Below, piece by piece: positions 10,160 through 57,360 of a stretch of DNA of 64,000 nt. The DNA is from Minisyncoccota bacterium. GTDB taxonomy: Bacteria > Patescibacteriota > Minisyncoccia > UBA6257. The translations under genes and the position numbers were made by a program. Position 1 is the stretch's first letter; the number at the start of each line of letters is the position of its first letter. The notes below the pieces were generated by a model that had not been told where the DNA came from, searched no databases, and worked only from the letters and a program-made list of their open reading frames with translations. The stretch spans positions 2,046 through 66,045 of the forward strand of contig JAQVJU010000002.1 of NCBI GenBank assembly GCA_028694995.1, written 5' to 3'.

Positions 10160-10160
10160 A

Positions 10161-43190: not shown

Positions 43191-44708
43191 TTGTATTTTA
43201 TTATGGATGACCCTAAGATATCACAATCATTATTTGGTCCACGAGTTCGTTTAGCGCCTAGTCCAACAGGGTGGTTTCATGTTGGTAATGCGAGAACAGG
43301 CTTGTTTAACTATTTATTTGCTAGAAAAAATGGAGGCAAGTTTATCTTGAGAATAGAAGATACAGATAAGGAAAGGTCAGAGAAGAAATATGAGAAAAAT
43401 ATCTTAGATGGATTAAAATGGTTAGGCATTGAATGGGATGAAGGTCCAGAAACACAAGGTTCTTTTGGGCCTTATCATCAAAGCGAGAGAACAGAGATTT
43501 ATAAAAAATACTTAGAACAACTTTTAAAAGAAGGCAAAGCTTACTATTGTTTTTGCACGCCTGAAGAATTAGAAGCTCAAAAAGCTGATATGATTGCTAG
43601 GGGCTTGCCTCCTAAGTATTCTGAAAAATGTCGGGATTTGCCAGAAAGTGTTATTAAGAAAAACCTAGCAGAAAAAAAACCAGCAGTGATAAGAATTAAA
43701 ATGCCTAATAAGGTGATAAAATTCACTGATCTTATTAGAGGTGAAGTTGAATTTGATTTAAATCTTATTGGCGATACTGTAATTGCTAAGAGTCTAATTG
43801 AGCCTTTGTATAATTTTGCTGTTGTAATTGATGATTATTTAATGAAAATAACGCATGTAATTCGCGGAGAAGACCATATTTCCAATACCCCTAAGCAAAT
43901 CACTATTCAGGAGTTATTAGGCCTTCCTATGCCCAATTACGCGCATTTACCTATGATTTTAGGCCCAGATAGGTCTAAATTAAGCAGCAGACATGGTGCA
44001 GTAAGCTTAATAGATTATCAAAAAAAAGGCTATTTACCAGAGGCTTTAGTTAATTTTTTAGCGTTTTTAGGCTGGCATCCTATAGGCGATAGGGAAATAT
44101 ATAGCATGGAAGAATTGATTGAGCTTTTTGATTTGGGTCGGGTTCAAAAAGGAGGCGCAGTGTTTAATATAAAAAGGCTAGATTGGTTTAATGCCCAACA
44201 TTTAAAATCATTAAACACTGATCAGTTATTTGATAAAATAGGGGAGTATATAAAGAATTTTTATCCTGATTCTAAGATAATAGAAGACAATTCCCCAGAA
44301 TATATAAAAAAGATAATTGAATTAGAGGCGCCGAGATTAACTAAATTAAGTGAATTTATTGATTTTTCAGATTTCTTTTTTAAAGAAAATCTTGTTTATT
44401 CAAAAGAACTTTTAAAATGGAAATCAATGGCAGATAAAGAAATCATTGTTTCCTTGAATGATTGTTTGAATATTTTAAAAGATATAAGTGAAAAAGATTT
44501 TAATCGGATTAATATTCAAATTAAGTTTTATAATTTTATAACAGAAAGTGATAATTATCAAAAAGATAAAGGAAAATTACTTTGGCCAATGAGAGTGGCT
44601 TTATCAGGTAAAAAAGCTTCACCAAGTCCATTTGAAATTGCAGAAATCTTAGGTAAGAAGAAAACAATTTTAAGAATTGAACAAGCCTTAAATCAAATAA
44701 AAACATGA
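43191..44708 (+). CDS. gltX: Glutamate--tRNA ligase
   Basis: Class I HIGH (PSPTGWFHVGNARTG) and KMSKS-like (KLSSRHG) motifs. Confidence 0.9.
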   Translation: MYFIMDDPKISQSLFGPRVRLAPSPTGWFHVGNARTGLFNYLFARKNGGKFILRIEDTDKERSEKKYEKNILDGLKWLGIEWDEGPETQGSFGPYHQSERTEIYKKYLEQLLKEGKAYYCFCTPEELEAQKADMIARGLPPKYSEKCRDLPESVIKKNLAEKKPAVIRIKMPNKVIKFTDLIRGEVEFDLNLIGDTVIAKSLIEPLYNFAVVIDDYLMKITHVIRGEDHISNTPKQITIQELLGLPMPNYAHLPMILGPDRSKLSSRHGAVSLIDYQKKGYLPEALVNFLAFLGWHPIGDREIYSMEELIELFDLGRVQKGGAVFNIKRLDWFNAQHLKSLNTDQLFDKIGEYIKNFYPDSKIIEDNSPEYIKKIIELEAPRLTKLSEFIDFSDFFFKENLVYSKELLKWKSMADKEIIVSLNDCLNILKDISEKDFNRINIQIKFYNFITESDNYQKDKGKLLWPMRVALSGKKASPSPFEIAEILGKKKTILRIEQALNQIKT

Positions 44709-45030
44709 ATAATATAGAGCAATTAACTCAGCTTTTGTTAGAGATAATTAAAGATATTGGTCATTTTGTTAATGAAACATTTATGACTGGGTTTGTTTCT
44801 AAGATTGTATTATTAATTGGAGGATTTTTAAAAACCATAGCTAGTTTTCTTATTGTTGGTTTAGAAGCAGTAATAAAGTTTTTAGAATATTTTGTAAAAT
44901 AAATTTGTTTTTATTTAAAAGACACATAATTTTAGGGGAGTAGCCTTGACAACGCATTTTAATGCGTTAATATAAATAGAGTATAGTTCGCATAATTTAA
45001 GTTAAGCGACTTGTAATATAATCTATAATT

Positions 45031-45990
45031 ATGAAAAGAAGCAATCAACCAATCCCCTCCTATTTAAATGATTTTTTAGATTGGTTAGAAATACAAAAAG
45101 GATTATCATCTAAGACACAAGAAAACTATGCAAGGTTTTTAAAAAAGTTTTTAGATTGGTTAAAAGAAAACAAGATGGAAGAGCTTAAACCTCATGAGCT
45201 ATCTTCTGATCATATATGGGATTATCGGGTTTTTCTATCTCGTCAATCTGTTAGTCATTTAGGTAGACCTCTTAAAAAATCCACCCAGAATTATTATTTG
45301 ATAGCTTTAAGGTCTTTATTAAATTTCTTTGCTGATAAAGATATTCTTTCATTACCAGCTGAGAAAATAGAATTAGCCAGAGATAAAGGAGATAAACAAA
45401 TAAGGTTCTTAGATTTAGAACAATTGGAAAGATTATTTTCTGCGCCTGATATTTCAAAAATTCAAGGATTAAGAGATAGAGCTATCTTAGAAATTTTCTT
45501 TTCAACAGGAATGCGTATTTCAGAATTAACTTCATTAAATCGTGAACAAATCAAAATCAAACCCAACATTACTGATTTAGAATTAAGTATTATTGGTAAA
45601 GGTGGCCGGATGAGAACTGTATATATCTCAGAAAGAGCTTTGTCTTGGTTAAAAAAATACTTAGATTTACGAGAAGATAAAGAAAAAGCTTTGTTTGTAA
45701 ATCATCAAATTAAAAAAGGTGTTCCAAAAAGATTAACTAATCGCTCTATAGAAAAATCAATGAAAAAGTATGTGATTATGGCTGGTTTACCTTTAAATAC
45801 TACGCCTCATGTTTTAAGACATTCTTTTAGCACTGATTTATTAGCTCAAGGTGTTGATATTAGAATTCTTCAAGAATTTTTAGGTCATAAGAATATTGCA
45901 GCTACTCAGATTTACGCTCATGTAACTAATAAGAAACTTAGAGAAATTCACCGGAAGTTTCATGGTGGTAGAAAACAAAAATTACTTTAA
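45031..45990 (+). CDS. Tyrosine site-specific recombinase (XerC/XerD/phage-integrase family)
   Basis: N-terminal SAM-like domain. Catalytic R...HxxR...Y (HVLRHSFSTDLL, IYAHV). Followed by the bidirectional terminator at 45998-46023. Confidence 0.8.
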   Translation: MKRSNQPIPSYLNDFLDWLEIQKGLSSKTQENYARFLKKFLDWLKENKMEELKPHELSSDHIWDYRVFLSRQSVSHLGRPLKKSTQNYYLIALRSLLNFFADKDILSLPAEKIELARDKGDKQIRFLDLEQLERLFSAPDISKIQGLRDRAILEIFFSTGMRISELTSLNREQIKIKPNITDLELSIIGKGGRMRTVYISERALSWLKKYLDLREDKEKALFVNHQIKKGVPKRLTNRSIEKSMKKYVIMAGLPLNTTPHVLRHSFSTDLLAQGVDIRILQEFLGHKNIAATQIYAHVTNKKLREIHRKFHGGRKQKLL

Positions 45991-45997
45991 AAGAAAA

Positions 45998-46023
45998 AAC
46001 CGGCTTGGATTAACCAGCCGGTT
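45998..46023. terminator. Bidirectional intrinsic terminator (A-tract - AACCGGCTTGG-ATTAA-CCAGCCGGTT - T-tract) between convergent genes
   Basis: GC-rich 10-bp stem flanked by A and T tracts. Confidence 0.65.
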
Positions 46024-46028
46024 ATTAT

Positions 46029-46334
46029 TTAATATTCGTTATATCCTCCTTTTTGTATAATTTCTTTGCTTTTTTTACCTTTTTCATTTCCACAAATATA
46101 AATCCTATAATTATTTCTTGCCTCCGGAGAAAGTTTTCCTCCTTCAGGAATATTCAAGTCTATATCATATATTTCCTTCATATCTCGAAAGGCTTTTTTC
46201 CAGGTTTTCTTAACTTTCTTTAAAATTTTCTGGAAAATAATTCGGTCTTCCTTTTTGTGGTAAGTGGATAAACTTAGATTTAGTTCTCCTGATTCTAAAT
46301 TCATCCACCCCTCTAGCCATATTAACCTTTTCAT
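46029..46334 (-). CDS. Small hypothetical protein
   Basis: ORF with RBS AAAGGAGGTAAAAG. Confidence 0.3.
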   Translation of the reverse strand: MKRLIWLEGWMNLESGELNLSLSTYHKKEDRIIFQKILKKVKKTWKKAFRDMKEIYDIDLNIPEGGKLSPEARNNYRIYICGNEKGKKSKEIIQKGGYNEY

Positions 46335-46346
46335 CTTTTACCTCCT

Positions 46347-46595
46347 TTATTTTTTATAAACTTGATAATCCGCACTAAAAGGCACAAAGGTAGACTCATA
46401 ATATCCCTTAGCCCTGTTATACTTCCTTGCAGCTATTTTCTTAGCTTGGGCTAAGGAGAACCCACCTTGCCAGATGTGATACTCATCATCAGGCTCGATC
46501 ACTATCAGGTGGTATACAAATGGCCATTTTCTACTCTGGCTTTTCCTTTCTGGAATCGAGAATAATTTCAATTGCTCTTGGAATTTAGAATCCAT
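46347..46595 (-). CDS. Small hypothetical protein
   Basis: ORF with a GAGG RBS. Co-oriented with the 46029 ORF. Confidence 0.3.
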   Translation of the reverse strand: MDSKFQEQLKLFSIPERKSQSRKWPFVYHLIVIEPDDEYHIWQGGFSLAQAKKIAARKYNRAKGYYESTFVPFSADYQVYKK

Positions 46596-46735
46596 TTGCT
46601 TTTCCTCTCTTTCTTTTTAAATTTTCAAAATACTGATATTATTATATCAGTTATAAAATATTTTGTCAATGGAAAGTAAATGGTAAATCAGTAAAAAATA
46701 TGATAAAATGTTTTAAGTAAAAGATTAATTCAAAT

Positions 46736-47911
46736 ATGAGAGTTAGTTATTCTAGTTTAGAAAACTTTAAACAGTGCCCTCTAAAGTATAAATATTCACA
46801 AATAGATAAATTAAAAGAGCCTAAAAGCAAAGAGGCTGTTTTTGGCACTTATATCCACAAAGTTCTTAAATGGTTTTATCAAAAAGACCCTCACTTCCCT
46901 ACTCTAGATGCTTTATTAGATTATTATAAAGAATCTTGGCCTAAAAAATCAGAAGGATTTGAATGGCAAGATCCAGAAGAAGAAAATTCATATTTTAAAG
47001 AAGGAATTAGAATCTTAGAAGAATATTATAAAACTAATATCCCCCACCAGACTTCTATCTTGGATTTGGAAACTAGGTTTGAGGTTACCATAGATGAAGA
47101 TCCAGACAAACCTAATAAAAAACACATTTTAACTGGTATTATTGACCGAATAGATAAATTACCTGATGGGAGAATGGAGATAATAGATTACAAGACTGGT
47201 AAACGAATTGCTTCTCAAAGAGAAACAGATTCTAGTGCCCAATTATCTTTGTATGCTATTGGAGTTAAAAATCGTTGGCCCAGAACAGATTTAAAAAATC
47301 TGTCTTTAAGTTTGTATTTTCTTAAATTTAATGAAAAGATTCAATCTCAAAGAACAGAAGAAGATTTAGAAAAAAGCAAAGAAGAAGTTATTAAAACAAT
47401 TCATAAGATAGAAAAAAGTAGTTTTGAACCCAGGCCATCGCCTTTATGTGGTTGGTGCGGTTATCGGAATATTTGTCCAATTTGGAAACACTTGTATGAA
47501 ATAGAAAATCAAATCAATGGAGAAAATGTTAAAGAAAAAATAGATGAATACTTTAAGCTCAAAGAAAAAAAAGAGAAAATAGAAGAAGAGCTTTGTAATT
47601 TAAAAAATTGCATAGAAGATTATAGCCATGAAAAAGGTCTAAAGAGAGTTTTTGGAGAAAATGGGTATTTTAGTCGTACGGTTCATAACAAAGTTTCATA
47701 CAATAAAAAACAATTAAAAGAAGTATTAGAGCCTTTAGGAAAATGGGAAGAAATCCTAGGCATAGACCAAAAAAGACTAGACAAGGTTTTAAAAGAAATC
47801 CCTCAAGAATTAAGAGATAAGGTAAAAGCAGCTGAGAAAATAGAAAAAAAATATAAATATCTCACTTCAAATAATGTAAGCAAGAAAGAATTAGAAGAAG
47901 AATTAGAATAA
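46736..47911 (+). CDS. PD-(D/E)XK nuclease superfamily protein, Cas4/RecB-like with predicted Fe-S cluster (1 N-terminal + 3 C-terminal Cys)
   Basis: Motifs GIIDRID, EIIDYKTGK and a Q..S.Y-like segment. N-terminal Cys in FKQCP plus C-terminal CGWCGYRNICP. Confidence 0.6.
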   Translation: MRVSYSSLENFKQCPLKYKYSQIDKLKEPKSKEAVFGTYIHKVLKWFYQKDPHFPTLDALLDYYKESWPKKSEGFEWQDPEEENSYFKEGIRILEEYYKTNIPHQTSILDLETRFEVTIDEDPDKPNKKHILTGIIDRIDKLPDGRMEIIDYKTGKRIASQRETDSSAQLSLYAIGVKNRWPRTDLKNLSLSLYFLKFNEKIQSQRTEEDLEKSKEEVIKTIHKIEKSSFEPRPSPLCGWCGYRNICPIWKHLYEIENQINGENVKEKIDEYFKLKEKKEKIEEELCNLKNCIEDYSHEKGLKRVFGENGYFSRTVHNKVSYNKKQLKEVLEPLGKWEEILGIDQKRLDKVLKEIPQELRDKVKAAEKIEKKYKYLTSNNVSKKELEEELE

Positions 47912-47914
47912 TTA

Positions 47915-48289
47915 TTAATTACACCTAGTATTATAAGTATAGCCATTAGCTTCAGCTTCTTCTCGAGATTTAAAATAGATTTTATTTTCTTCTTTTAAGC
48001 TATTAGCTAAGCTACATTCAACAGGATAATAGTATTTTCCTCGAGAACTGGCTACAAAAGGAAATTCTTTTTGTGCTTCTTTTTTAGCTTCAATTTGAGC
48101 TAATCCTTGTTCTAAATCAAGGATTAATTCTTTTTCAATAATGATTGGCGGACGACTAAGAATATTAGCGCCAAGAATAATTCCTGAGGTAAAAGAAAAA
48201 ACAATAGTCAAAAAAATAAAACTGGAGAGCCAGAAATGCTTTTTGACAAAATCAATAATTTTTGCTAATATTTTTAAACAGTGGGGCAT
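47915..48289 (-). CDS. Membrane-anchored protein with C-terminal Ada-type zinc-binding domain
   Basis: N-terminal TM segment. C-terminus YYPVECSLANSLKEENKIYFKSREEAEANGYTYNTRC resembles the Ada metal-binding domain consensus. Confidence 0.4.
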   Translation of the reverse strand: MPHCLKILAKIIDFVKKHFWLSSFIFLTIVFSFTSGIILGANILSRPPIIIEKELILDLEQGLAQIEAKKEAQKEFPFVASSRGKYYYPVECSLANSLKEENKIYFKSREEAEANGYTYNTRCN

Positions 48290-48318
48290 AATATTTAATT
48301 TTTAATTTTTAATACAAT

Positions 48319-48615
48319 ATGGCAAGGACAAAAGCTGGTGGTTCAACAAAATTAGGTAGAGATTCACGTCCAAAAAGTCTTGGTCTTAAGGTAGCTGACG
48401 GTCAAGAAGTAAGAACGGGTAATGTTTTAATCAGACAAAGAGGAACTAAATGGCATCCAGGCACAAATACTGGTCTTGGCGAAGATGATACAATCTTTTC
48501 TCTTAAAGATGGAATTGTAAAGTTTTCAACTAAAAGAAAAAAAAGTTTTACTGGTAAGATTAAAAGAGTTAGCGTGATAAACGTTATTCCTTTGGTTTTA
48601 AAGGAACAGTCTTAA
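48319..48615 (+). CDS. rpmA: 50S ribosomal protein L27
   Basis: Motif [16 protein letters not shown]...[11 protein letters not shown]. Confidence 0.85.
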
Positions 48616-49048
48616 TTCTAACTTTTAAACTAGCTGATATTTCAGGATAAAGATTTACATTAATTTCATAATCCCCTTGTTCTTTTAAGGGGTTTTTTAA
48701 TTCAATCTGATTTTCTTTTAAAGAGATGCTTTTGTTTTTTAATTCCTCAATGATTTTTTTAGCATTAACAGAGTCATAAGCTTTTTTTCCTTTTTCTGAG
48801 AATTTAAGAGGAATTTCCAATACAAGGTTTTTTAAATCTTCTGCTGTCTTTAGGGCCAGTTCTTTTTCCTGCTTTTCTTTTTGTACTTTTAATTCTTTTT
48901 GCTCAGAAACCTTTTGTACAATTTTCTCATCAGCTCTTTGAGCTAATTTATTGGGAAAGAGATAATTTAAAGCATAACCAATGGCGACTTTTTTAATTTC
49001 TCCTTTTTTTCCTAATTCAGAAACATCTTGTAATAAATAAACTTTCAT
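48584..49048 (-). CDS. rplI: 50S ribosomal protein L9
   Basis: Motif [26 protein letters not shown]. Confidence 0.85.
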
Positions 49049-49057
49049 AATTAATTT

Positions 49058-50359
49058 TTAATTTTGTTCAGGAAGAATAGTTCCTCTGGGCATTATTTGC
49101 AGAGGGGTTATTAATTCATCAATGGCTGCTTGCAATTGATTGTCTTTTGTTGGATCTATCTTAGAATAAGTGCCTAATTCTTCTTGATTTTCTAATTCTA
49201 TCATAATATCTGGCTCTAATCCATTATTCTGGATAATTGTTTCTTTTGGAGTAAGCCAACGAGAGATGGTTATCTTTAAGCTATTATCATCTTTTAAGGT
49301 TACTAATTCTTGAACCGAGCCTTTACCAAATGTCTTAGTGCCAATTAATTTTACTCCCCGATTATCTCTTAAAGCCCCAGCTAATATTTCAGAAGCTGAG
49401 GCAGTACCTTCATTAACTAAAACCACAGTGGGGATATTTTTTAACAAATTTTGAGCTAAACTAACACGAAAAACTTTACTTTCTTCTTTACCAAAATCTT
49501 CTTTAAGAATAATATCTCCATTAGATAAAAACCAGCCGCTAATATTAACCACAGCATCCAAATACCCTCCAGGATTATTGCGTAAATCCAAAACAAGTCC
49601 TTGGGGCTTGGCTCTGGATATTTCCAAAGCTGTTTGGTAAAAATCAATTTTTAAAGGTAGATTAAAATTATAAATCTTTAGATAAGCAATATTGTTTTCT
49701 AACATTTGCCAGCTAACAGTTGGAATTTGAATTTTTTCCCTAGTTAATTCTATTTCTTCTGTTACATTTGTAGAAGGACGATAAGTGGTTAAAGAAACTT
49801 TAGTTCCAGCTTGGCCACGTATTAATTGTGAAGCTTTAGTAGTTGAAAAATTCACTGTTTCTAAATCATTAATTTTTAAAATAATATCATTTGGTTTTAA
49901 ACCAGCTTTTTCAGCTGGAGTGTTTGGCAATGGGGCTACGACTACTAAATAACCATCTTTTTTTCCTATTTCCATGCCAATACCAAAAAACTCTCCTGAT
50001 AATTCATCTGAAAGTTCTTGAGTTTCTTCAGTTGTTAAAAAATCAGAATAAGGATCTTCTAAAGAATTAATCAATCCTTTTGTAGCCCCAATAATCATTT
50101 TTTCAGGATCTAAATCATAACGGTCAACATATTTTTCCAAAACTACTTTCCAAGTGTCCCAAAAAATACCCATATCAGAATCAGGCACAGTAACTGGCGC
50201 TTGTTTGTTAATTATCTTTTCAAAAGGAGAAGGCAGATTTGCTTGCCAGCCCCATTGGGCACCATGCATAAATCCTAAACCCCACATGGCAAGAAACAAA
50301 ACAATGCCTAAGGTTATGAGACCTACTTCTTTAAAGTTTATCTTAGAGTTATTTTTCAT
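49058..50359 (-). CDS. ctpA: Carboxyl-terminal processing protease (S41 family, PDZ domain)
   Basis: PDZ segment (GIGMEIGKKDGYLVVVAPLPNTPAEKAGLKPNDIILKIND). S41 catalytic segment (GTASASEILAGAL...TFGKGSVQ). Confidence 0.85.
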   Translation of the reverse strand: MKNNSKINFKEVGLITLGIVLFLAMWGLGFMHGAQWGWQANLPSPFEKIINKQAPVTVPDSDMGIFWDTWKVVLEKYVDRYDLDPEKMIIGATKGLINSLEDPYSDFLTTEETQELSDELSGEFFGIGMEIGKKDGYLVVVAPLPNTPAEKAGLKPNDIILKINDLETVNFSTTKASQLIRGQAGTKVSLTTYRPSTNVTEEIELTREKIQIPTVSWQMLENNIAYLKIYNFNLPLKIDFYQTALEISRAKPQGLVLDLRNNPGGYLDAVVNISGWFLSNGDIILKEDFGKEESKVFRVSLAQNLLKNIPTVVLVNEGTASASEILAGALRDNRGVKLIGTKTFGKGSVQELVTLKDDNSLKITISRWLTPKETIIQNNGLEPDIMIELENQEELGTYSKIDPTKDNQLQAAIDELITPLQIMPRGTILPEQN

Positions 50360-51746
50360 TTTTTTTCAAAAAATTAATAAATTGATAAGGTAAGTTTGCT
50401 ATTTTTCCAGGGCCAGTGAAGATAACAACATCATTTTTTTTAAGAATACCATAAAGGTTTTTAAATAATTCTGATGAATCATTATTTAAATGAATTTGTG
50501 TTTTTTTAAGAGTTTTTTGTTTTAAGATTTGCTCATATATTATCTTTTCATCGATGCCTTTAATTGGTTTTTCATTAGCTGGATCAATAGGTAATAAGAA
50601 TAAAACATTACAATTTTTTACAGCTAAGGCATATTCTTTGTAAAGAAAGGAGATACGAGAATAACGATGAGGTTCTAGAATTAAAATGATTCTTCTCTTA
50701 CCAAATACCTGATGAGCCATTCTTAAGAGGCTTTTTATTTCTGTTGGATGATGGGCATAATCATCAACGATTGCTATTTTCTGATTATAAACAACACTAA
50801 ACCTTCTTTCAACCCCAGAAAATGTCTTAATGTGTTTTAAAGAATCTTTAAAAGGAATTCCAATAATTTTAGCAATTAAAATAGCCCCTAAGGCATTGTA
50901 AATATTCTCTTTTTCTGGAACAACAAGATGAAGTTTTTCTTCAAATTTTCCTTGAAAATACAAATCAGCAGTTGACTTATTTTTTAGATATTGAATATTC
51001 TTTACTGATAAATCTGTTTTTTTATTAATACCAAAATTAATAATTTGTTTTTTGGTTTTTTTACAAAGAGTTTTTAAGAATTCATCATCATTATTTAAAA
51101 CAATAAAACCTGAAAGGCTTTGTTCAGCAAATATCTGAAAAGCTTTTTTTAAAAGTGAAAAATCAGTTTTATATGGTCCTTGAGCAAATAAATGGTCATT
51201 GTCTACATTAGTAATCAATGGTAGATAAGAAGGGGTTTTTAAAAAAGATTTATCATGTTCATCAGTTTCAATTATTGCATATTCTCCATTTGTCCATTCA
51301 CTACCTAAAGGATAGTCTTTAGTCTTAGCGCCTAAATAAACTATTGGTTTTAGTCCTTGTTTTTTTAAAATATGAGCAGTCATGGCAACAGTAGTGCTTT
51401 TGCCATGAGAACCAGCAATACTAATAATCTTTTTGTCATTTAAAAGCTTTATTAAATAATCAAAACGATTAAAAACAGGGATTTTTTTCTTTTTAGCTTG
51501 TAAAAGTTCAATATTGTTTTTAGGAATTGCTGAAGAATAAACAACAGTTTTTGGTTTTTGAATATTTTCTATCTGATGACCAATAAATATTCTACTTCCT
51601 TTTTGTTCTAATTTCTTTTTAGCTGAAAAATCTTTTTTATCAGATCCTGAAATATAATATCCTTTTTCTAGCAGAAGATTAGCTAAGGCAGTCATGCCTG
51701 AGCCACCTATTCCAATTAAGTGAATATGCTGTTTTTTAATGCTCAT
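50349..51746 (-). CDS. murC: UDP-N-acetylmuramate--L-alanine ligase
   Basis: N-terminal IHLIGIGGSGMTALA and Mur ligase central P-loop (GSHGKSTT). Confidence 0.8.
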   Translation of the reverse strand: MSIKKQHIHLIGIGGSGMTALANLLLEKGYYISGSDKKDFSAKKKLEQKGSRIFIGHQIENIQKPKTVVYSSAIPKNNIELLQAKKKKIPVFNRFDYLIKLLNDKKIISIAGSHGKSTTVAMTAHILKKQGLKPIVYLGAKTKDYPLGSEWTNGEYAIIETDEHDKSFLKTPSYLPLITNVDNDHLFAQGPYKTDFSLLKKAFQIFAEQSLSGFIVLNNDDEFLKTLCKKTKKQIINFGINKKTDLSVKNIQYLKNKSTADLYFQGKFEEKLHLVVPEKENIYNALGAILIAKIIGIPFKDSLKHIKTFSGVERRFSVVYNQKIAIVDDYAHHPTEIKSLLRMAHQVFGKRRIILILEPHRYSRISFLYKEYALAVKNCNVLFLLPIDPANEKPIKGIDEKIIYEQILKQKTLKKTQIHLNNDSSELFKNLYGILKKNDVVIFTGPGKIANLPYQFINFLKKNEK

Positions 51747-51841
51747 TTAAGTAATTATATAGTTTTTAAGCTGTTTTTGTCAATTTTGGAATTTATCTTT
51801 TATTGGATAATTAAGTAAAAATAATATAAAATAGGATTAAT

Positions 51842-52399
51842 ATGAAACATCGGATATTTATTGCCTCACATTTGCCTTGTAATGTTAAAAAGGTTTTTTC
51901 AGGATATCAATTAGCTAAATTATCAAATTCTTGTTTTCGTTTAATACCTGAAAAATCAATGCATTTAACCTTAATCTTTATTGGTGATATTTGGAACAAT
52001 GATTTATATAAAGTAATTCAAGCTTGTGAAAATACTGTAAAATCTTTTTTCCCCATTAGAATTGAGATAAATAAAATCACCTATGGTCCGATTATTCATA
52101 ATCCTCGTTTAATCTGGGCCCAAGGTAAAGAATCTGAAGAATTAATTAATTTTCATCAATCTTTGGAAAAAGAATTAATAGATCAAGGAATAAAATTTAA
52201 AAAGGAAAATCGTTTATTCAAACCACATATTACCTTAGCTAGAATTAATAAAGAAAATTGTTTAAATCTACCTTCTGTTTCAGAAATAGAATTGAAAACA
52301 GAAGAATCTTTTAATTTAAATCAAATTTCAATAATTGAAAGTGAATTAACTTCTTCAGGGCCTATTTATACAGACTTAAACAGTTTTTTACTCAAATAA
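51842..52399 (+). CDS. thpR: RNA 2',3'-cyclic phosphodiesterase / 2'-5' RNA ligase (2H family)
   Basis: Two H-x-T/S-x motifs (HLTLIF, HITLAR). Confidence 0.75.
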   Translation: MKHRIFIASHLPCNVKKVFSGYQLAKLSNSCFRLIPEKSMHLTLIFIGDIWNNDLYKVIQACENTVKSFFPIRIEINKITYGPIIHNPRLIWAQGKESEELINFHQSLEKELIDQGIKFKKENRLFKPHITLARINKENCLNLPSVSEIELKTEESFNLNQISIIESELTSSGPIYTDLNSFLLK

Positions 52400-52408
52400 T
52401 AAGTATTT

Positions 52409-53257
52409 ATGTTTATCTTAGATGTTGTTCCTTTAACTAATATTCCTCTTGGTCAATCTCAGATTTTTTCTTACTTTTCAAAACAAGATGTTAAAAGAGG
52501 TTGTTTGGTTGAAGTTTTTTTAAATCGTAGAAAAGTATTAGCAACAGTTTTAAGATCAGAAAATGTTGTTTCTAGAAAAGCTTTAATTAAAAAATCTAAA
52601 TTTGCTCTTAAACCTATTATAAATGTTATTTCCTTTAAGCCATTAATGCCTCCATTGTTTTTTATTTTAGCTGATTTTATGGCTCGTTATTATTTCTGTT
52701 CTACTTCTTTGGCTATAAAAACAATCTTGCCTTCTAGGATTAAATCTCTTTCTAAGTATCTTGAAAAACTTCCTGATGAAGAATTTCCTGAGTATTTTAA
52801 AATTACAAAACCCTTAGCAAGTAAGGAAATATTAAAAAGACAGAAAGGTAATATTTTTTCAAATGATTTTTCTTTTTTAATTAAAGAAATAAAACAATGT
52901 TTATCTAAAAAACAACAAGTATTGATTTTAGCGCCTACTGTTTTACATCAACAATATTATTTAGATAAAATAAAAACCTCTTTAGAAGAAACAGTTTATA
53001 TTGCTGGTCCTGATTTAAAAGTTAAGGAATTTAACGATTTGTGGAAAAAGATTAACAATCAAGAAGCTTTATTGATTATTGGCAGACGCTCAGCTGTGTT
53101 TTTACCTTGGCAGAATTTAGGATTGATTATTATCATTGATAGCAATAACCCAGCATATAAATCATGGGATCAAAAACCTTATCATAATGCCATTACTTTA
53201 GTAAATTATCTCTCTTTGTATTATCATGCCTCAATCATTGAATATCAAAATTATTAA
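52409..53257 (+). CDS. priA: Primosomal protein N' (PriA), N-terminal part; helicase motifs I/II degenerate; separated from the C-terminal part by a +1 frameshift
   Basis: PriA-like 3'-DNA-binding N-terminus. No Walker A GxGKT where expected (KEIKQCLSKKQQVLILAPT). IIIDSNN replaces DEEH. Confidence 0.5.
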   Translation: MFILDVVPLTNIPLGQSQIFSYFSKQDVKRGCLVEVFLNRRKVLATVLRSENVVSRKALIKKSKFALKPIINVISFKPLMPPLFFILADFMARYYFCSTSLAIKTILPSRIKSLSKYLEKLPDEEFPEYFKITKPLASKEILKRQKGNIFSNDFSFLIKEIKQCLSKKQQVLILAPTVLHQQYYLDKIKTSLEETVYIAGPDLKVKEFNDLWKKINNQEALLIIGRRSAVFLPWQNLGLIIIIDSNNPAYKSWDQKPYHNAITLVNYLSLYYHASIIEYQNY

Positions 53258-54353
53258 TCCAAGAATTGAACCTCAAAAAGGCTCTGGAAGAAAAAAACCA
53301 CCCTTTCAAGCCTTAGGTTTAGAAACTCTATCAGTAATAGAACAAGCAATTAAGAAAAACAAGAAAATTGCTATTTTTATTAATCGACGAGGATTAGCCA
53401 CTAGTATTATTTGCCAGGAATGCGGATTTGTGCCAAAATGTCCTAATTGTGATATTCCTCTTGGTTTTCATTTACCAGCAATTTTGATTTGTCATCATTG
53501 TGGTTATCAAGCTCCAATGCCTAATACTTGTCCTGCTTGTCAGGGTTATCGCTTAAAACCTTTAGGAATAGGAATGCAAAGGATTGGTGAAGAGCTTAAA
53601 GAATTTATCTCTCCCCTGCCCCAATATGCTTTATTAGAAGGGCAAATGCTTGATAATAAAGAATTAAAAATATTTGATAAATTTAATCAAGGTAAGATAA
53701 AAATCTTAATTGGTACTGAAGCTTTATTAAGGCCTCAATTAGAATCAGCAGATGTAGTTATTGTGGCTTCTATAGATCCATTAATTTTCTTACCTGATTA
53801 TAATAGTGAAGAAAGAGTTTTCCTTTATCTTTTAAGATTAAAAAAGATAGCTAAGGAAAAATTAATTATTCAAACTTTAATTCCAGAAAACAAGATATTT
53901 CAATATTTAGTTAATCAAGAAGAAAAAAAGTTTTTTGAACAAGAAAAAAAATGGCGTCAAAATTATCTTTGGCCACCATTTGTTCAATTGATTAAATTAA
54001 CTCTAATTCATCCTGATGAGAAAAAAGGAGAAAAAGAAGCCTTGGATATCAGGGATAAAATAGATCAAGTCATATTAAAAACAATACCTAAAAACCTTCA
54101 AGGAAGTTTCATTATTCTTGGTCCAGCTCCAGCTTTTATTTTTAAAGAAAAAAAAGTTTATCGTTGGAATATCCTGATAAAATATAAATACATTACTAGT
54201 AAGATATTACAAAACACAAATTCACTATCAGGTCTTAATTCTTTAATGCCTTTGTTAACAAAAGAAGAATTAGATTTGAGAAACAAAGTCTTAAAAACAA
54301 TTTCTTTAAATAAATATTGGCGAGTAGATGTGGACCCTAAAGATACATTATAA
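53226..54353 (+). CDS. priA: Primosomal protein N' (PriA), C-terminal part with Cys-rich zinc-binding domain
   Basis: The segment ICQECGFVPKCPNCDIPLGFH...ICHHCGY...CPACQG is the PriA double zinc-finger. Overlaps the previous ORF by 32 nt in another frame. Confidence 0.55.
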   Translation: MPQSLNIKIINPRIEPQKGSGRKKPPFQALGLETLSVIEQAIKKNKKIAIFINRRGLATSIICQECGFVPKCPNCDIPLGFHLPAILICHHCGYQAPMPNTCPACQGYRLKPLGIGMQRIGEELKEFISPLPQYALLEGQMLDNKELKIFDKFNQGKIKILIGTEALLRPQLESADVVIVASIDPLIFLPDYNSEERVFLYLLRLKKIAKEKLIIQTLIPENKIFQYLVNQEEKKFFEQEKKWRQNYLWPPFVQLIKLTLIHPDEKKGEKEALDIRDKIDQVILKTIPKNLQGSFIILGPAPAFIFKEKKVYRWNILIKYKYITSKILQNTNSLSGLNSLMPLLTKEELDLRNKVLKTISLNKYWRVDVDPKDTL

Positions 54354-54361
54354 AAAACATT

Positions 54362-54832
54362 ATGGATTTAATAACAGGTAAAGATAATAAAACATTAAGA
54401 CAAAAAAGCCTTCCAGTTAAGAAAATAGACGCAGAAGTAAGAAGTCTTATAAAAAAGATGACAGTTTTTATGAAGCAGAATAATGGAATTGGTTTAGCAG
54501 CTATTCAAATAGGTGTGCCCTTAAGAGTGATTGTTTGTGAAGTTAATGACAAAGTTTATTCATTAATTAATCCAGAGATTATAAAAACTTCTACTGAGAT
54601 GAATGTTATGGATGAGGGTTGTTTAAGTGTTCCTGATGTTTTTGGCGAAGTGGAAAGACCAGAAAAAATTGTTATCAAGGCAACAACCCCAGAAGGCAAG
54701 AAAATTAAATTCAAAGCCTTTGATTTATTAGCTAGGGTTTTACAACATGAAATGGATCATCTAGATGGTATTCTTTTTACAGACAAGGCTAAAACTACCA
54801 GAGAAGAATTAAACCAAGCTCCAGCTTTATAA
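54362..54832 (+). CDS. def: Peptide deformylase
   Basis: Motifs GIGLAAIQIG, EGCLSVP and QHEMDHLDG. Confidence 0.9.
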   Translation: MDLITGKDNKTLRQKSLPVKKIDAEVRSLIKKMTVFMKQNNGIGLAAIQIGVPLRVIVCEVNDKVYSLINPEIIKTSTEMNVMDEGCLSVPDVFGEVERPEKIVIKATTPEGKKIKFKAFDLLARVLQHEMDHLDGILFTDKAKTTREELNQAPAL

Positions 54833-54834
54833 CT

Positions 54835-55785
54835 ATGAATCAATTTATATTCTTTGGCTCATCAGAATTTTCTAAAATTGTTTTAGACAAATTACTTCAA
54901 GCAAAAATGAAGCCAGTTTTAGTAGTGACTAATCAACCAAAACCAAGGGGCAGAAAACAAATCCTTTCCCCTACTCCTGTTAATGTTTTGGCTTTAGAGC
55001 ATAAGATTCCAGTATTATTGCCTGAAATATTAGATGAAGAATTTATAAATCAAATAAAAGAGATAAATCCAGAATTTATTATACTGACAGCTTATGGTAA
55101 AATTATTCCTTCTGAATTATTAGCGATTCCATTAAAAGGGTTTATTAACTTACATCCATCTCTTTTACCAAAATGGCGAGGGGCAACTCCTATTCAATCT
55201 GTCATATTAAACGGAGATATGGAAACTGGGGTGACTTTAATTTTAATGGACGAACAAGTAGACCATGGTCCAATTATTGCTCAATCTGAATTTAAAATTG
55301 ATAATCTAAGATTTAATTCAGAAGAATTATCAGAAAAATTAGCTGTTATCGGGGCTGAGTTAATTATTCAAACTATACCTCAGTATTTAAAAGGAAAAAT
55401 TATTCCTATGGCTCAAGATCATTCCCAAGCAACTTTTTGTAAAAAAATATTACCAGCAGATGAAAGAATTAACTGGCAACAAGATAATATTCAAATAGAT
55501 AGACAAGTCCGTGCCCTTAATCCTGAACCAGGTGCTTATACTAAAGCTATGCATCCTCAAAAATATGAGTTAATATTGAAAATAGTAAAAGGTTATTTGG
55601 AAAATGATGAATCATTAGAAAAACTACCAATAGGAAAAGTTTTTGATTATCAAAATAAAATGGCTGTTAAATGTAAAAAAGGTTTTTATGTTATTGAATT
55701 AATTAAACCTTCTGGTAAACAAACAATGTCCAGCGATGCTTTTCTTAGAGGTAATAATTGGATTTTAAATCAAATATTAAAATGA
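54835..55785 (+). CDS. fmt: Methionyl-tRNA formyltransferase
   Basis: Formyltransferase N-domain (NLHPSLLPKWRGATPIQ) and the C-terminal domain. Confidence 0.9.
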   Translation: MNQFIFFGSSEFSKIVLDKLLQAKMKPVLVVTNQPKPRGRKQILSPTPVNVLALEHKIPVLLPEILDEEFINQIKEINPEFIILTAYGKIIPSELLAIPLKGFINLHPSLLPKWRGATPIQSVILNGDMETGVTLILMDEQVDHGPIIAQSEFKIDNLRFNSEELSEKLAVIGAELIIQTIPQYLKGKIIPMAQDHSQATFCKKILPADERINWQQDNIQIDRQVRALNPEPGAYTKAMHPQKYELILKIVKGYLENDESLEKLPIGKVFDYQNKMAVKCKKGFYVIELIKPSGKQTMSSDAFLRGNNWILNQILK

Positions 55786-56789
55786 TTGAAACATCAAAAA
55801 AATCTTATCTGGTAATAATCTCAGCTATTTTTATAATTCTTATCCTGGCGATAACAGTTAATCTAGGTATAAAAAGAAATGGTTCTTTAACTTCTTCTGT
55901 CATACAATTTGAGCCAGAGATTATTACAGAAAATAATGTTAAAAATCATCAGGAGATAAGTTTTGATATTCCCTTACATATTAATTTAACTAACTTTTAT
56001 AAATCTTATGGAGAACGGCTTTTAGGTAATGATAAAGTTAGAATTATCAGTCGAGAACAATGGAAAGCTGATAATCGTTATGCTGATATGAATTTTATAG
56101 AAAAATATTGTGAAGATAATTTTTGTTATTCAGAAGTTTATGATGCCGAAGATAGTTTTTCTCAACAAGAATATTGGACAGCAAAAGAATTGGCTTTGAA
56201 TTATAAACAGAATTTTCAGTTAACTGATAGTTTTTTTCTCCAAAGCCAGGAAAAAGAAAATAAATTAAAATATCATTATCTGCCTGTGGAAGAAATAATT
56301 ATTCATCATACAGCAGGTAGCTTTACCTTAGAATTTGAAGATTCAAAAAAAGAAATTCAAAGAATTTATTTAATGCAAGCAGTGCAGAGAAAATGGCAAG
56401 ATATTGGTTATCATTACTTGATTGATGGCGCTGGTCGTGTTTTTGAAGGTAATTTAGGGGGTAAATATGCTATTGGCATTCATACTTATGGCCATAATAA
56501 TGCCACTCTTTCCATTGCTTTAATGGGTGATTTTCGTCCTGGATATAATGAATTCAATAATGTAATGCAAGCATCTTTAATAAACCTAATACAATATTTA
56601 ACAGAAGAATATCAATTTGATTTATCAAAACAAGAGTTTTCTTTAAGAAAGATAGATTTATCTGGTCGGGAAAAAACTGAAAACTTTATTAAAGGTCATC
56701 AAGAAGTAGATTTAAAACAAGAGCCAACTGAATGCCCTGGTGTTGATCCTGAATATTTAAGAAATTTAATTTACCCTTACTTATTCTAA
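55782..56789 (+). CDS. N-acetylmuramoyl-L-alanine amidase (Amidase_2/PGRP domain) with N-terminal TM anchor
   Basis: Motifs IIIHHTAG...IGYHYLIDGAGRVFEG. The start overlaps the fmt stop (ATGA). Confidence 0.75.
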   Translation: MIETSKKSYLVIISAIFIILILAITVNLGIKRNGSLTSSVIQFEPEIITENNVKNHQEISFDIPLHINLTNFYKSYGERLLGNDKVRIISREQWKADNRYADMNFIEKYCEDNFCYSEVYDAEDSFSQQEYWTAKELALNYKQNFQLTDSFFLQSQEKENKLKYHYLPVEEIIIHHTAGSFTLEFEDSKKEIQRIYLMQAVQRKWQDIGYHYLIDGAGRVFEGNLGGKYAIGIHTYGHNNATLSIALMGDFRPGYNEFNNVMQASLINLIQYLTEEYQFDLSKQEFSLRKIDLSGREKTENFIKGHQEVDLKQEPTECPGVDPEYLRNLIYPYLF

Positions 56790-56802
56790 CAAGAACATTC
56801 AG

Positions 56803-57360
56803 TTATTCTTTAAATACATTTGCTTGATATTGATAAATCTCAAAATCAATATTTTTCCAACAATCTTCTTTCATTCCAGCTTTGGAGCATAAATGTGAAA
56901 GAAATTCTTCAGGAGTTTTCAAATCTTCCCAAACTTGAGGTAAAAAGGTAGCTTGATGAGCTCCTTTTTTAATTAAGATTCCTGGTTGGTTTTTCTTCAA
57001 ATGCTTGATTAAACCTTCATTATTAGAAAAACCTATTTTTTTCAAAGGTTCAATAATAGAGATTTCTATCTTAATTTTATTTAATTCTTCTTTTTTAACA
57101 GGTAAAAAACGAGAATCAAATAAAGCACTAGCTAAACTGTTTTCAATTACCATTTCAAAAATTGGCTTGATGCCTTCAAGGCAACCAACACAACCCCTTA
57201 AAGTTTCATTTTCCCAAAGAGAGATAAAAACTCCTTTTTTCTCTTTTAAAGAATCTGATAAATCATCTATTTCTATTTGTAAAATATCCTTGTTTTGAAA
57301 ATATTTCTCAAGGGTTCTTCGTGCTAATTCTAAAAGATATTTTTTATCCTTTTGTTTCAT
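56803..57360 (-). CDS. AMMECR1-domain protein (AmmeMemoRadiSam system protein A)
   Basis: Motif LRGCVGCLEG. The start is probably the internal Met at 57360. The ORF-track N-terminal extension to 57429 overlaps the upstream gene. Confidence 0.7.
   Translation of the reverse strand: MKQKDKKYLLELARRTLEKYFQNKDILQIEIDDLSDSLKEKKGVFISLWENETLRGCVGCLEGIKPIFEMVIENSLASALFDSRFLPVKKEELNKIKIEISIIEPLKKIGFSNNEGLIKHLKKNQPGILIKKGAHQATFLPQVWEDLKTPEEFLSHLCSKAGMKEDCWKNIDFEIYQYQANVFKE

What the first reader, a model, noticed from the sequence alone, without database searches (positions are those of the whole stretch)
45031..48289. Tyrosine recombinase followed by two small ORFs, a Cas4/RecB-like Fe-S nuclease and an Ada-type Zn-finger membrane protein: possible remnant integrative element or a DNA-processing cassette
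The XerC/D-family recombinase (R-H-R-Y catalytic residues) is flanked by gltX and a small membrane ORF upstream, and by a bidirectional terminator downstream. Downstream come two small minus-strand ORFs with good RBSs. Next is a PD-(D/E)XK nuclease with a Cas4-like four-Cys signature (FKQCP ... CGWCGYRNIC). Last is a TM protein ending in an Ada-like zinc-binding motif (YYPVECSLANSLKEENKIYFKSREEAEANGYTYNTRC). No att-like direct repeats or tRNA target were found by eye. The recombinase may simply be the chromosomal dimer-resolution Xer of a CPR genome. The Cas4-like nuclease is not next to cas1/cas2 or a CRISPR array.
Basis: partly seen in the sequence, partly recalled or inferred. Interest (0 to 1): 0.5.

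Follow-up and report, generated by a model that had tools for sequence, protein, structure and literature searches.

The report
Chromosomal Xer recombinase with adjacent dif site
This is not a leftover mobile element: it is the replication-terminus region of a tiny Parcubacteria (CPR) chromosome, holding the housekeeping Xer recombinase, a previously unnoticed 28-bp dif-like target site just upstream of that gene, and ordinary conserved neighbour genes.

Summary
The "remnant integrative element" reading fails; its fallback, a chromosomal dimer-resolution Xer, is supported.

- **Synteny:** ftsW-murG-gltX-xer-[variable slot]-rpmA-rplI-ctpA recurs across about 80 Parcubacteria genomes (Xer 58-97% identical).
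- **The missed feature:** a 28-bp, 11-6-11, near-palindromic dif-like site lies at 44985-45012, 18 bp before the xer ATG.
  - It is the best-scoring site per ~20-kb locus directly upstream of xer in 79 of 81 sequences.
  - A search for the site alone found xer beside it in 22 of 22 metagenome contigs.
  - Oriented by the site, GC skew falls across it in 52 of 52 loci.
  - Its outer arm positions co-vary so that the palindrome is kept.
- **Neighbours:** the RecB/AddB-type Fe-S nuclease and the small Ada-like membrane protein are vertically inherited. Nuclease homologues down to 43% identity occupy the same slot.
- **What varies:** only the two small ORFs are lineage-restricted and fast-changing.

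The locus works like the gene-linked single-recombinase XerS/difSL and XerH/difH modules but belongs to neither family. No description of Xer/dif in CPR was found. Recombination, single-copy status and FtsK dependence remain untested.

The parts
44705..44902 (+). 65-aa hydrophobic small ORF. Its ATG overlaps the gltX stop (ATGA). It is conserved only in the closest relatives.
   Evidence: homologues at 45-100% identity in L004-L006 and in the metagenome contigs (cluster C10, 83); no family hit
44946..44973 (+). Promoter-like element for xer (TTGACA-16-TAATAT). The -35 box is conserved in all aligned relatives. A perfect palindrome, AACGCATT-TT-AATGCGTT (44951-44968), fills the spacer in the genus-level clade.
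   Evidence: the sequence
44985..45012 (+). dif-like Xer recombination site, AGTTCGCATAA-TTTAAG-TTAAGCGACTT: 11-bp arm, 6-bp centre, 11-bp arm, with near-palindromic arms. It starts about 5 nt after the predicted transcription start and ends 18 nt before the xer ATG.
45031..45990 (+). Xer-family tyrosine recombinase (319 aa), equally similar to XerC and XerD and below every equivalog cut-off.
45998..46019 (.). GC-rich hairpin between convergent xer and ORF101, terminator-like. Colinearity with the 91%-identical relative L004 breaks just after it, at 46027.
46029..46334 (-). ORF101, a small orphan protein. It is the most variable element of the locus: 37% identical in a strain whose flanking genes are 97-98% identical.
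46347..46595 (-). ORF82, a small protein from a very narrow family (about 7 representative clusters in 1.84 billion). The predicted fold is beta-beta-alpha-beta. Function unknown.
46633..46669 (-). Perfect sigma-70-type promoter (TTGACA-17-TG-TATAAT) for the ORF82-ORF101 operon. Its -10 box overlaps the palindrome CTGATAT-TATT-ATATCAG (46633-46650).
   Evidence: the sequence
46736..47911 (+). Stand-alone RecB/AddB/Cas4-type PD-(D/E)XK nuclease with a 4-Cys (Fe-S type) signature and a conserved C-terminal domain of about 135 aa. It is a conserved chromosomal gene of Paceibacterota.
   Evidence: synteny
47915..48289 (-). 124-aa protein with one N-terminal hydrophobic helix and a C-terminal domain distantly related to the Ada metal-binding domain (2 of 4 Cys kept). 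It is the constant neighbour of rpmA and the nuclease.
   Evidence: (cluster C2)

Best explanation
The region is the replication-terminus neighbourhood of a small Paceibacterota (Parcubacteria, CPR) chromosome.

**The Xer/dif module.** Gene 45031-45990 is the chromosome's own Xer tyrosine recombinase. Its target is the 28-bp dif-like site at 44985-45012, immediately upstream. The proposed mechanism is inferred from the Xer family:
1. Xer protomers bind the two near-identical 11-bp arms.
2. Two dif copies on a chromosome dimer synapse at division.
3. Sequential strand exchanges across the 6-bp centre convert the dimer into monomers.

Promoter, dif and xer form one compact module, with dif at about +5 to +32 of the predicted transcript. 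Xer bound at dif probably also represses its own gene (inferred).

**The other genes are residents, not cargo.**
- The nuclease is a stand-alone RecB/AddB-type Fe-S nuclease. It probably processes DNA ends during recombinational repair (inferred from its fold).
- A small membrane-anchored Ada-like protein of unknown role always sits beside rpmA.
- ORF82-ORF101 is a fast-evolving, lineage-restricted two-gene operon. It occupies the variable slot just downstream of xer, which in other lineages holds LAGLIDADG or other small genes.
For: **Shown**
- *Synteny.* gltX-xer-...-rpmA-rplI-ctpA recurs in most of 80 genomes.
- *Site location.* The unmodified window 28-mer finds its best match in each ~20-kb locus within about 300 bp upstream of xer in about 75 of 80 loci. 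With a position matrix the figure is 79 of 81, scoring 17-39 bits against mostly under 10 (at most 21) for the runner-up.
- *Site-seeded search.* A scan of metagenomes for the site alone gave 22 contigs, and all 22 have xer adjacent.
- *GC skew.* Oriented by the site, GC skew is higher on the left than on the right in 52 of 52 loci, and changes from + to - in 44 of 52. This includes 7 loci where the site is inverted relative to xer.
- *Skew control.* Third-codon-position skew flips for genes on both strands. Genes converge on the site: 413+/52- on the left, 131+/463- on the right.
- *Arm co-variation.* Arm positions 2/27 and 3/26 co-vary so as to keep the palindrome: 38 and 52 of 70 complementary, against 18 and 34 expected.
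- *Resemblance to dif.* The left arm and centre resemble the E. coli XerC arm and centre, GGTGCGCATAA TGTATA (E. coli sequence from my own knowledge).
- *Catalysis.* The catalytic R-K-H-R-H-Y residues are invariant.
- *In the window.* The site is unique in 64 kb. GC3 skew is +0.09 to +0.55 for genes of both strands up to 45 kb and mixed after it.
- *Nuclease.* Homologues at 61%, 47%, 45%, 44% and 43% identity lie in the same slot.
- *Precedent.* The review PMC5357621 calls dif lying next to the xer gene a possible hallmark of single-recombinase systems.
Against: - In this window the cumulative GC skew plateaus from 45 to 57 kb and peaks at 56.7 kb. The 8 kb to the right of the site has skew of about 0 rather than negative values, so dif sits at the edge of the switch, not at a sharp peak.
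- Xer genes and dif-like sites could not be counted genome-wide. One relative, L050, has two tandem xer paralogues.
- The position matrix was trained on the sites it scores. This is mitigated.
- The left arm contains CATAAT, which resembles a -10 box.
- No binding or recombination data exist.
- Only 3 of the 7 XerD residues that contact FtsK-gamma are conserved, so the activation mechanism is unknown (alignment, with Table 1 of PMC5052618 read).
Confidence: 0.85

Rival explanations
1. The region 45.0-48.3 kb is the remnant of an integrative element (prophage, ICE or IMEX). The recombinase was its integrase, and the nuclease and small ORFs were its cargo.
For: - The nuclease matches phage exonuclease families: phrog_69 at 7.6e-36 and DUF2800.
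- The slots flanking xer vary in content and length among relatives, 0.2-7 kb.
- ORF101 is replaced or strongly diverged between 91%-identical strains.
- Homing-endonuclease-type genes occupy the same slot elsewhere.
Against: - xer, the nuclease and the Ada-like gene keep the same order between gltX and rpmA down to 43% nuclease identity and 54% Xer identity.
- There is no second dif-like or att site, no direct repeats and no tRNA nearby.
- Composition matches the surroundings.
- The recombinase scores as Xer, about 219 bits to the XerC and XerD models, not as a phage integrase subfamily.
- All 22 site-seeded contigs show the same chromosomal context.
Confidence: 0.03
2. The conserved 28-mer is only a transcriptional element of xer, such as a promoter, an operator or a 5'-UTR structure, and not a recombination site.
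For: - It lies between the conserved promoter and the xer start codon in nearly every relative.
- Its left arm contains a -10-like CATAAT (one search lists TTAATA-18-CATAAT).
- A palindrome could equally be the operator of a dimeric repressor.
Against: - In 11 loci the site is inverted relative to xer, yet its orientation still follows the polarity of the GC skew.
- It has the 11-6-11 architecture of dif, and its arm and centre resemble the bacterial XerC arm.
- It coincides with the skew and gene-orientation switch in 52 of 52 loci.
- The same 28-mer type occurs in phage contigs without an adjacent xer.
- The two roles are not exclusive: the site could serve both recombination and autoregulation.
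Confidence: 0.07
3. Xer and the PD-(D/E)XK nuclease form a functional DNA-processing pair at the terminus. The nuclease might, for example, process broken or unresolved DNA at dif, which would explain their adjacency.
For: - The nuclease family lies within about 1-2 kb of xer in the window and in L004-L006, L026, L028, L029, L053, L097, L099, L105 and L107.
- A second, unrelated PD-(D/E)XK type (cluster C12) lies beside xer or dif in L007 and L009, and about 1.5 kb downstream in L050.
Against: - Most xer loci have no nuclease within 10 kb.
- In L106 the nuclease keeps its Ada-like and rpmA neighbours with no xer between gltX and rpmA. Its constant partners are therefore those genes, not xer.
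- The two genes are in separate transcription units, separated by an opposite-strand operon.
Confidence: 0.08

Closest known systems
XerS/difSL of streptococci and lactococci (single recombinase, gene-linked site)
   Same: The site lies immediately next to the recombinase gene, forming one module at the terminus. The arms are nearly symmetric, consistent with one recombinase binding both (for XerS; here).
   Different: - XerS is 356 aa and difSL is 31 bp with an 11-bp centre. Here the protein is 319 aa and the site is 28 bp with a 6-bp centre.
- The XerS model scores 128 bits against a cut-off of 267.
XerH/difH of Helicobacter and Campylobacter
   Same: It is a single recombinase with its site near the gene.
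   Different: - XerH is 354-362 aa and only weakly similar: 5jjv at 4e-13, against XerD at 8.9e-36.
- The difH arm sequences are unrelated to the arms here (AGTTATGAAAA versus AGTTCGCATAA).
Classical XerC/XerD-dif (E. coli, B. subtilis)
   Same: - The closest protein relatives are XerD and XerC.
- The site has the same 28-bp 11-6-11 architecture.
- The left arm and centre resemble GGTGCGCATAA TGTATA.
- The site lies at the terminus.
   Different: - Scores fall below both equivalog cut-offs: 219 against 335 for XerC and 216 against 330 for XerD.
- The right arm mirrors the left arm rather than being a XerD-type arm (TTATGTTAAAT).
- The site abuts the gene.
- Only one xer is present in the 64-kb window.
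- Only 3 of 7 XerD residues that contact FtsK-gamma are conserved (alignment; PMC5052618).
Archaeal XerA/dif
   Same: It is a single recombinase acting on a 28-bp dif at the terminus.
   Different: The XerA model scores 187 bits against a cut-off of 220. The organism here is bacterial. Whether the system is FtsK-independent is unknown.
Nuclease domains of AdnAB and AddB, and Cas4-family proteins (ACE1, Cas4)
   Same: - It has the RecB-type PD-(D/E)XK core with the D...D-x-K and QxxxY motifs and a C...CxxCx5C cluster.
- The best Foldseek matches are 7sjr_A at 7.9e-12, 9iac_A at 2.3e-11 and 4cej_B at 2.7e-07.
   Different: - It is a stand-alone 391-aa protein with no helicase domain and no adjacent helicase, cas1, cas2 or Argonaute gene.
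- It carries a family-specific C-terminal domain of about 135 aa.
- The Cas4 model TIGR00372 scores 50 bits against a cut-off of 65.

Membership tests
Xer/dif chromosome-dimer resolution system (generic) | Tyrosine recombinase of the Xer clade with the catalytic R-K-H-R-H-Y residues | tested here: met
   Phage_integrase 2.8e-42. XerC and XerD models score about 219 and 216 bits. XerD 1a0p matches at 8.9e-36. R162, K190, H260, R263, H286 and Y295 are invariant in 81 orthologues.
Xer/dif chromosome-dimer resolution system (generic) | Recombination site of about 28 bp: two inverted arms of about 11 bp around a 6-8 bp centre | tested here: met
   The site at 44985-45012 is 11-6-11. Column counts and arm complementarity were measured in 70 distinct sites.
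Xer/dif chromosome-dimer resolution system (generic) | Site located at the replication terminus, where GC skew and gene orientation switch, with a fixed polarity | tested here: met
   In 52 of 52 loci the skew is higher on the left than on the right when oriented by the site, and 44 of 52 go from + to -. The GC3 control and gene convergence agree. In the window the site lies at the left edge of a 45-57 kb skew plateau.
Xer/dif chromosome-dimer resolution system (generic) | Single copy per chromosome | tested here: inconclusive
   The site is unique in the 64-kb window and in most 20-kb loci. Whole genomes could not be scanned. L047 has a weaker second site 7.4 kb away.
Xer/dif chromosome-dimer resolution system (generic) | Recombinase binds and recombines the site and resolves dimers | not testable with these tools
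   This needs EMSA, cleavage or plasmid-resolution assays.
XerC/XerD two-recombinase system | Protein reaches the XerC or XerD equivalog score | tested here: not met
   TIGR02224 scores 219.1 against 335.15, and TIGR02225 scores 216.4 against 329.6.
XerC/XerD two-recombinase system | Asymmetric dif with distinct XerC and XerD arms, and two paralogous recombinases | tested here: not met
   The arms are near-palindromic and their outer positions co-vary. Only one xer is present in the window and in 79 of 80 loci. The genome-wide count was not testable.
XerS/difSL | XerS equivalog score, and a 31-bp site with an 11-bp centre | tested here: not met
   NF003462 scores 128.4 against 267. The site here is 28 bp with a 6-bp centre. 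Only the gene-site adjacency is shared.
Integrative mobile element (prophage, ICE or IMEX) | Flanking att or duplicated target sites, a tRNA or dif target, and presence/absence polymorphism among relatives | tested here: not met
   There are no repeats or second site and no tRNA within about 26 kb. Synteny is conserved. Only ORF101 differs between close strains.
CRISPR-associated Cas4 | Cas4 equivalog score, and linkage to cas1, cas2 or a CRISPR array | tested here: not met
   TIGR00372 scores 50.4 against 65. The neighbours are xer, small ORFs, the Ada-like gene and rpmA in all six contexts examined. The nuclease motifs and the 4 Cys are present.
Ada N-terminal metal-binding domain (PF02805) | Pfam gathering score, and the four Zn-ligand cysteines (Cys38, 42, 69 and 72 of E. 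coli Ada) | tested here: not met
   The window protein scores 17.6 bits against 23. The alignment gives C38->Y, C42 kept, C69->N, C72 kept (the Ada sequence and its ligands are recalled from my own knowledge). A relative in L010 passes at 25.5 bits and keeps 3 of the Cys. The NCBIfam 'sunset' domain scores 15.3 against 27.

The most novel reading that the evidence does not exclude
Parcubacteria as a group use an undescribed type of single-recombinase Xer system. It is a compact, probably self-repressing promoter-dif-xer module with a classical-size 28-bp but near-palindromic dif, and it marks the terminus of these small genomes.

The same site may also be used as an attachment site by tailed CPR phages. 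Several IMG/VR phage contigs carry a CPR-type dif 28-mer at the head of their terminase operon. No integrase was found in the stretches of those contigs held here, which are partial. If real, these would be IMEX-like tailed phages.
Probability: 0.25. Interest if true: 0.65.

Novelty: new variant of a known kind. Interest (0 to 1): 0.4.

Why it matters
- **Annotation.** Taken as the finding was written, the locus is ordinary housekeeping DNA. It should not be annotated as a mobile element or as a CRISPR-related nuclease.
- **A terminus marker for CPR genomes.** The by-product is useful. A sequence-defined dif site next to xer gives a terminus marker for Parcubacteria genomes, whose replication architecture is almost unstudied. 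It could help close and check MAG assemblies, and it could anchor estimates of replication rate from read coverage.
- **A new case of gene-linked dif.** It adds a large bacterial radiation to the short list of lineages with a gene-linked, apparently single-recombinase Xer system. It combines a XerD-like protein with a symmetric 28-bp site.
- **A testable phage question.** If the phage lead holds, this would be the first hint of how CPR phages integrate.

Tried and rejected
- **ORF82.** Pfam, NCBIfam, PHROGs and PADLOC gave nothing. Only about 7 small representative clusters exist in 1.84 billion. The AlphaFold model is mediocre, pLDDT 68.8, and has no Foldseek match better than E = 0.17. No function could be assigned.
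- **ORF101.** No homologue was found beyond itself.
- **Toxin-antitoxin or defence reading of the small ORFs.** No PADLOC hit. This is left as speculation only.
- **Ada-like protein.** It has no sequence match in the PDB, even at E = 10. No paper on the 'sunset domain' was found.
- **RNA families.** The Rfam scan of 43-50 kb gave only a sub-threshold sRNA match inside ctpA: 35.9 against 60 bits. It was rejected.
- **Repeats.** The direct and inverted repeat search of 43-50 kb returned only low-identity AT-rich matches.
- **Lysogens.** The exact phage 26-mer had no match in metagenome contigs. Relatives of the L087 terminase in viral contigs were only the contig itself plus three weak, distant terminase matches at 26-33% identity. 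No lysogen with phage DNA beside xer was found.
- **Literature.** Searches for Xer/dif in CPR, Patescibacteria or Parcubacteria found nothing relevant.
- **Left undone.** A search for KOPS-like polar motifs was considered and dropped, because gene orientation and purine skew would confound it. The nuclease's C-terminal domain was not identified separately: Foldseek matches were dominated by the N-terminal domain.

Full report

Yes. The ORFs lie where stated.
- The 319-aa protein (45031-45990) is a tyrosine recombinase: Phage_integrase 2.8e-42 plus SAM-like N-terminal domains. It scores almost equally against the XerC model (219 bits) and the XerD model (216 bits), below both equivalog cut-offs. 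Its best solved relative is E. coli XerD (1a0p, 8.9e-36).
- The 391-aa protein (46736-47911) is a PD-(D/E)XK nuclease (PDDEXK_1 8e-40). Its matches to Cas4 and AddB models are sub-threshold.
- In 35 homologues down to 42% identity, C14, H41, D137, D151, K153, Q169, Y173, C238, C241 and C247 are invariant.
- A confident model (pLDDT 85.7) matches the nuclease domains of AdnAB (7.9e-12), the Cas4-family protein ACE1, AddB, Dna2 and Cas4.
- The 124-aa protein (47915-48289) has one N-terminal hydrophobic segment and an Ada-like C-terminus. Its Pfam score is below threshold (17.6 against 23). Aligned to E. coli Ada (sequence from my own knowledge), only the equivalents of C42 and C72 are kept; C38 becomes Y and C69 becomes N.
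- The two small minus-strand ORFs have no family.
- There is no tRNA within about 26 kb and no meaningful direct repeat.

**2. Context in relatives**

The exact Xer protein lies on three further contigs with identical gene order. A scan of one genome per species returned 80 loci with Xer orthologues at 58-97% identity. All are Parcubacteria/Paceibacterota MAGs, whatever their submitted labels.

tblastn with the window's proteins shows ftsW-murG-gltX-xer-[0.2-7 kb, variable]-rpmA-rplI-ctpA in most of them.

Five look-ups seeded with nuclease homologues (61%, 47%, 45%, 44% and 43% identical) all landed in the same slot: nuclease, then a minus-strand Ada-like gene of about 125 aa, then rpmA. In one of them (L106) no xer lies between gltX and rpmA. 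The nuclease's constant partners are therefore the Ada-like gene and rpmA. The family has more than 2,300 full-length members, which sources name "PD-(D/E)XK nuclease family protein" or "RecB family exonuclease".

**3.

The sequence AGTTCGCATAA-TTTAAG-TTAAGCGACTT lies at 44985-45012, 18 nt before the xer ATG.
- **Fixed 28-mer.** Using this 28-mer unchanged, the best match anywhere in each ~20-kb locus, on either strand, fell between 26 and about 300 bp upstream of xer in about 75 of 80 loci.
- **Iterated matrix.** An iterated position matrix placed the top site directly upstream of xer in 79 of 81 sequences. Top sites scored 17-39 bits, against mostly under 10 (at most 21) for the runner-up.
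- **Invariant columns.** C5, A8, A10, A11, T18 and A21 do not vary. The centre is T-N4-(G/C).
- **Arm complementarity.** The arms are complementary except for the invariant A8/A21 pair. Outer positions 2/27 and 3/26 co-vary to preserve complementarity: 38 and 52 of 70 distinct sites, against 18 and 34 expected if independent.
- **Site-seeded scan.** A metagenome scan for the site alone, with no protein information, returned 22 contigs, every one with xer adjacent.
- **Uniqueness.** In the window the site occurs once.

**4. Terminus**

Cumulative GC skew in the window climbs steadily to about 45 kb, then flattens, peaks at 56.7 kb and falls. Third-position skew is positive for genes of both strands before 45 kb and mixed afterwards.

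Across relatives, after orienting each locus by the site:
- The 8 kb on the left have higher skew than the 8 kb on the right in 52 of 52 loci, with a + to - sign change in 44 of 52.
- This includes 7 loci where the site is inverted relative to xer. The site's polarity therefore follows the replichores, not the gene.
- Pooled GC3 skew is +0.03 and +0.08 (left, + and - strand genes) and -0.06 and -0.06 (right, + and - strand genes).
- Genes converge on the site.

A maximum of cumulative GC skew marks the terminus; this is established knowledge.

**5. Mechanism**

*Shown:* a Xer-clade recombinase with intact catalytic residues; a dif-architecture site; strict gene-site linkage; a terminus position.

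*Inferred from the Xer family:* protomers bind both arms; two sites synapse on a chromosome dimer; exchange across the 6-bp centre resolves it.
- The left arm and centre resemble the E. coli XerC arm and centre. The right arm mirrors the left instead of being XerD-type. Together with the co-variation, this suggests a single recombinase.
- The review PMC5357621 notes that dif lying next to the gene is a possible hallmark of the single-recombinase XerS and XerH systems.
- A conserved TTGACA-16/17-TAAAAT promoter precedes the site at a fixed distance, even in distant relatives. This places dif at about +5 to +32 of the transcript, so autorepression is plausible (inferred).
- Of the seven XerD residues that contact FtsK-gamma (PMC5052618, Table 1), three are conserved in the alignment. 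The salt-bridge residue E184 is replaced by R, so activation may differ. This was not tested.

**6. The rest of the locus**

The slot just downstream of xer is variable.
- **In this window.** It holds ORF82-ORF101, driven by a perfect consensus promoter whose -10 box overlaps a palindrome.
- **Strain comparison.** Against a strain with 91% DNA identity over 11 kb, colinearity breaks at 46027 and resumes at about 46396. ORF101 is about 50% identical at the nucleotide level and 37% at the protein level. The flanking genes are 97-98% identical at the protein level.
- **Other lineages.** The slot holds a LAGLIDADG endonuclease gene (10 loci), an unknown family that always directly follows a xer gene (cluster C13), DUF6884, or housekeeping genes such as uppS.
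- **Verdict.** This is a terminus-proximal variable spot, not an element bounded by att sites.

**7. Comparison and novelty**

The system works like XerS/difSL and XerH/difH in being a gene-linked single module. It fails their membership tests on protein score and size and on site length and centre.

It also fails the XerC, XerD and XerA equivalog cut-offs. It combines a XerD-like 319-aa protein with a symmetric 28-bp site.

Full-text searches found no description of Xer/dif in CPR. That is absence from one library, not proof of novelty. I rate it a new variant of a known kind. The original cassette hypothesis is ordinary.

**8. Side lead**

A scan of IMG/VR for the site pattern gave 13 contigs. 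By my own rough estimate, a few of these hits would be expected by chance.
- Four score above the 95th percentile of a random null at positions the pattern left free. Six fall within the range of the CPR sites.
- In five contigs the site lies at the upstream edge of the terminase operon.
- In one contig held in full (L101), the site sits in a 1.07-kb gap between a divergent primase module and a packaging module.
- Apart from L089, where a Xer-like gene (24% identical) lies next to the site, no Xer-like recombinase was found in the stretches held. Most of those stretches are only part of their contigs.
- These may be CPR phages that use dif as an attachment site. No lysogen was found.

**9. Verdict**

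- Observation: confirmed.
- Mobile-element and cassette interpretation: rejected.
- Chromosomal Xer with a cognate dif site at the terminus: strongly supported by comparative evidence, but untested biochemically.

Noticed in passing
L086:2794-2817, L087:10846-10869 (= L101:5115-5136), L090:5653-5676, L094:391-414, L096:8180-8203: IMG/VR phage contigs carry CPR-type dif 28-mers at the upstream edge of their terminase (phrog_2) operon. In L101 the site sits in a 1.07-kb gap between a divergent primase module and a packaging module. Apart from L089, which has a Xer-like gene next to its site, no Xer-like recombinase was found in the held, mostly partial stretches. These could be IMEX-like tailed phages of Parcubacteria.
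   Followed up: partly
L047:17352-17379 (complete genome CP179887.1): A second, weaker dif-like site (ATGTCGCACAACATAGATTATCTGACAT) lies 7.4 kb downstream of the main site. The interval holds xer plus accessory genes: GIY-YIG-like, HIT, radical SAM/SPASM and a TehB methyltransferase. It could be a dif-bounded island.
   Followed up: partly
L073:10997, L079:10999, L080:9228, L021:10972: Left-arm half-sites (xTGTCGCAYAAT...) occur just after the xer stop codon in several relatives. There, xer is bracketed by a full dif site and a half-site.
   Followed up: no
L050:8537-9448 and 10001-10930; L013:4290-4382: One relative (Colwellbacteria) has two tandem xer paralogues, with the dif-like site upstream of the first. 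Another relative has a 31-aa fragment of the xer 3' end downstream of an inserted gene. That gene belongs to cluster C13, which directly follows a xer gene in 3 of 3 cases.
   Followed up: partly
L012, L013, L014, L016, L017, L019, L020, L021, L027, L033 (e.g. L017:7432-8001): A free-standing LAGLIDADG endonuclease gene (PF00961, 3.4e-16) lies downstream of xer in ten Staskawiczbacteria-like loci, first after xer in about half of them. The variable slot attracts homing-endonuclease-type genes.
   Followed up: partly
window 52409-53257 and 53226-54353: PriA appears split into two overlapping ORFs: the 3'-DNA-binding domain in one, and the Cys-rich region plus C-terminal domain in the other. No helicase-core family was reported. 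This could be a frameshift, a pseudogene or a truly reduced PriA.
   Followed up: no
window 45000-57000: GC skew does not turn negative immediately to the right of dif. There is a plateau of about 12 kb, and the plus-strand genes at 52.4-56.8 kb mostly keep a positive GC3 skew. This may reflect a recent rearrangement across the terminus in this clade. L005 and L006 show the same pattern.
   Followed up: partly
window 44951-44968: A perfect palindrome, AACGCATT-TT-AATGCGTT, fills the spacer of the xer promoter. It is conserved in the genus-level clade only, and may be the operator of an unknown regulator.
   Followed up: partly
window 47915-48289; L107:6359-6754; L010:13179-13826: The Ada-like small membrane protein always lies next to rpmA (L27). 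NCBIfam's weak hits are to a 'sunset domain' that also occurs on an L17 variant. One relative has a weak precomputed 'ArfC' Pfam hit. This hints at a ribosome-related rather than a DNA-repair role.
   Followed up: partly
PDB 9i5v chain 14: A 401-aa chain labelled 'Ribosome-associated translation inhibitor RaiA' matches this Xer over residues 5-299 at 1.2e-21. The label looks odd for a tyrosine-recombinase-like sequence.
   Followed up: no
L007:9067-9816, L009:10973-11755, L050:12401-13174: A second, shorter PD-(D/E)XK-type protein family (cluster C12, about 250-260 aa; PDDEXK_1 at 0.0014, sub-threshold) lies beside xer or dif in L007 and L009, and about 1.5 kb downstream of xer in L050. These lineages lack the 391-aa nuclease at this position.
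   Followed up: partly
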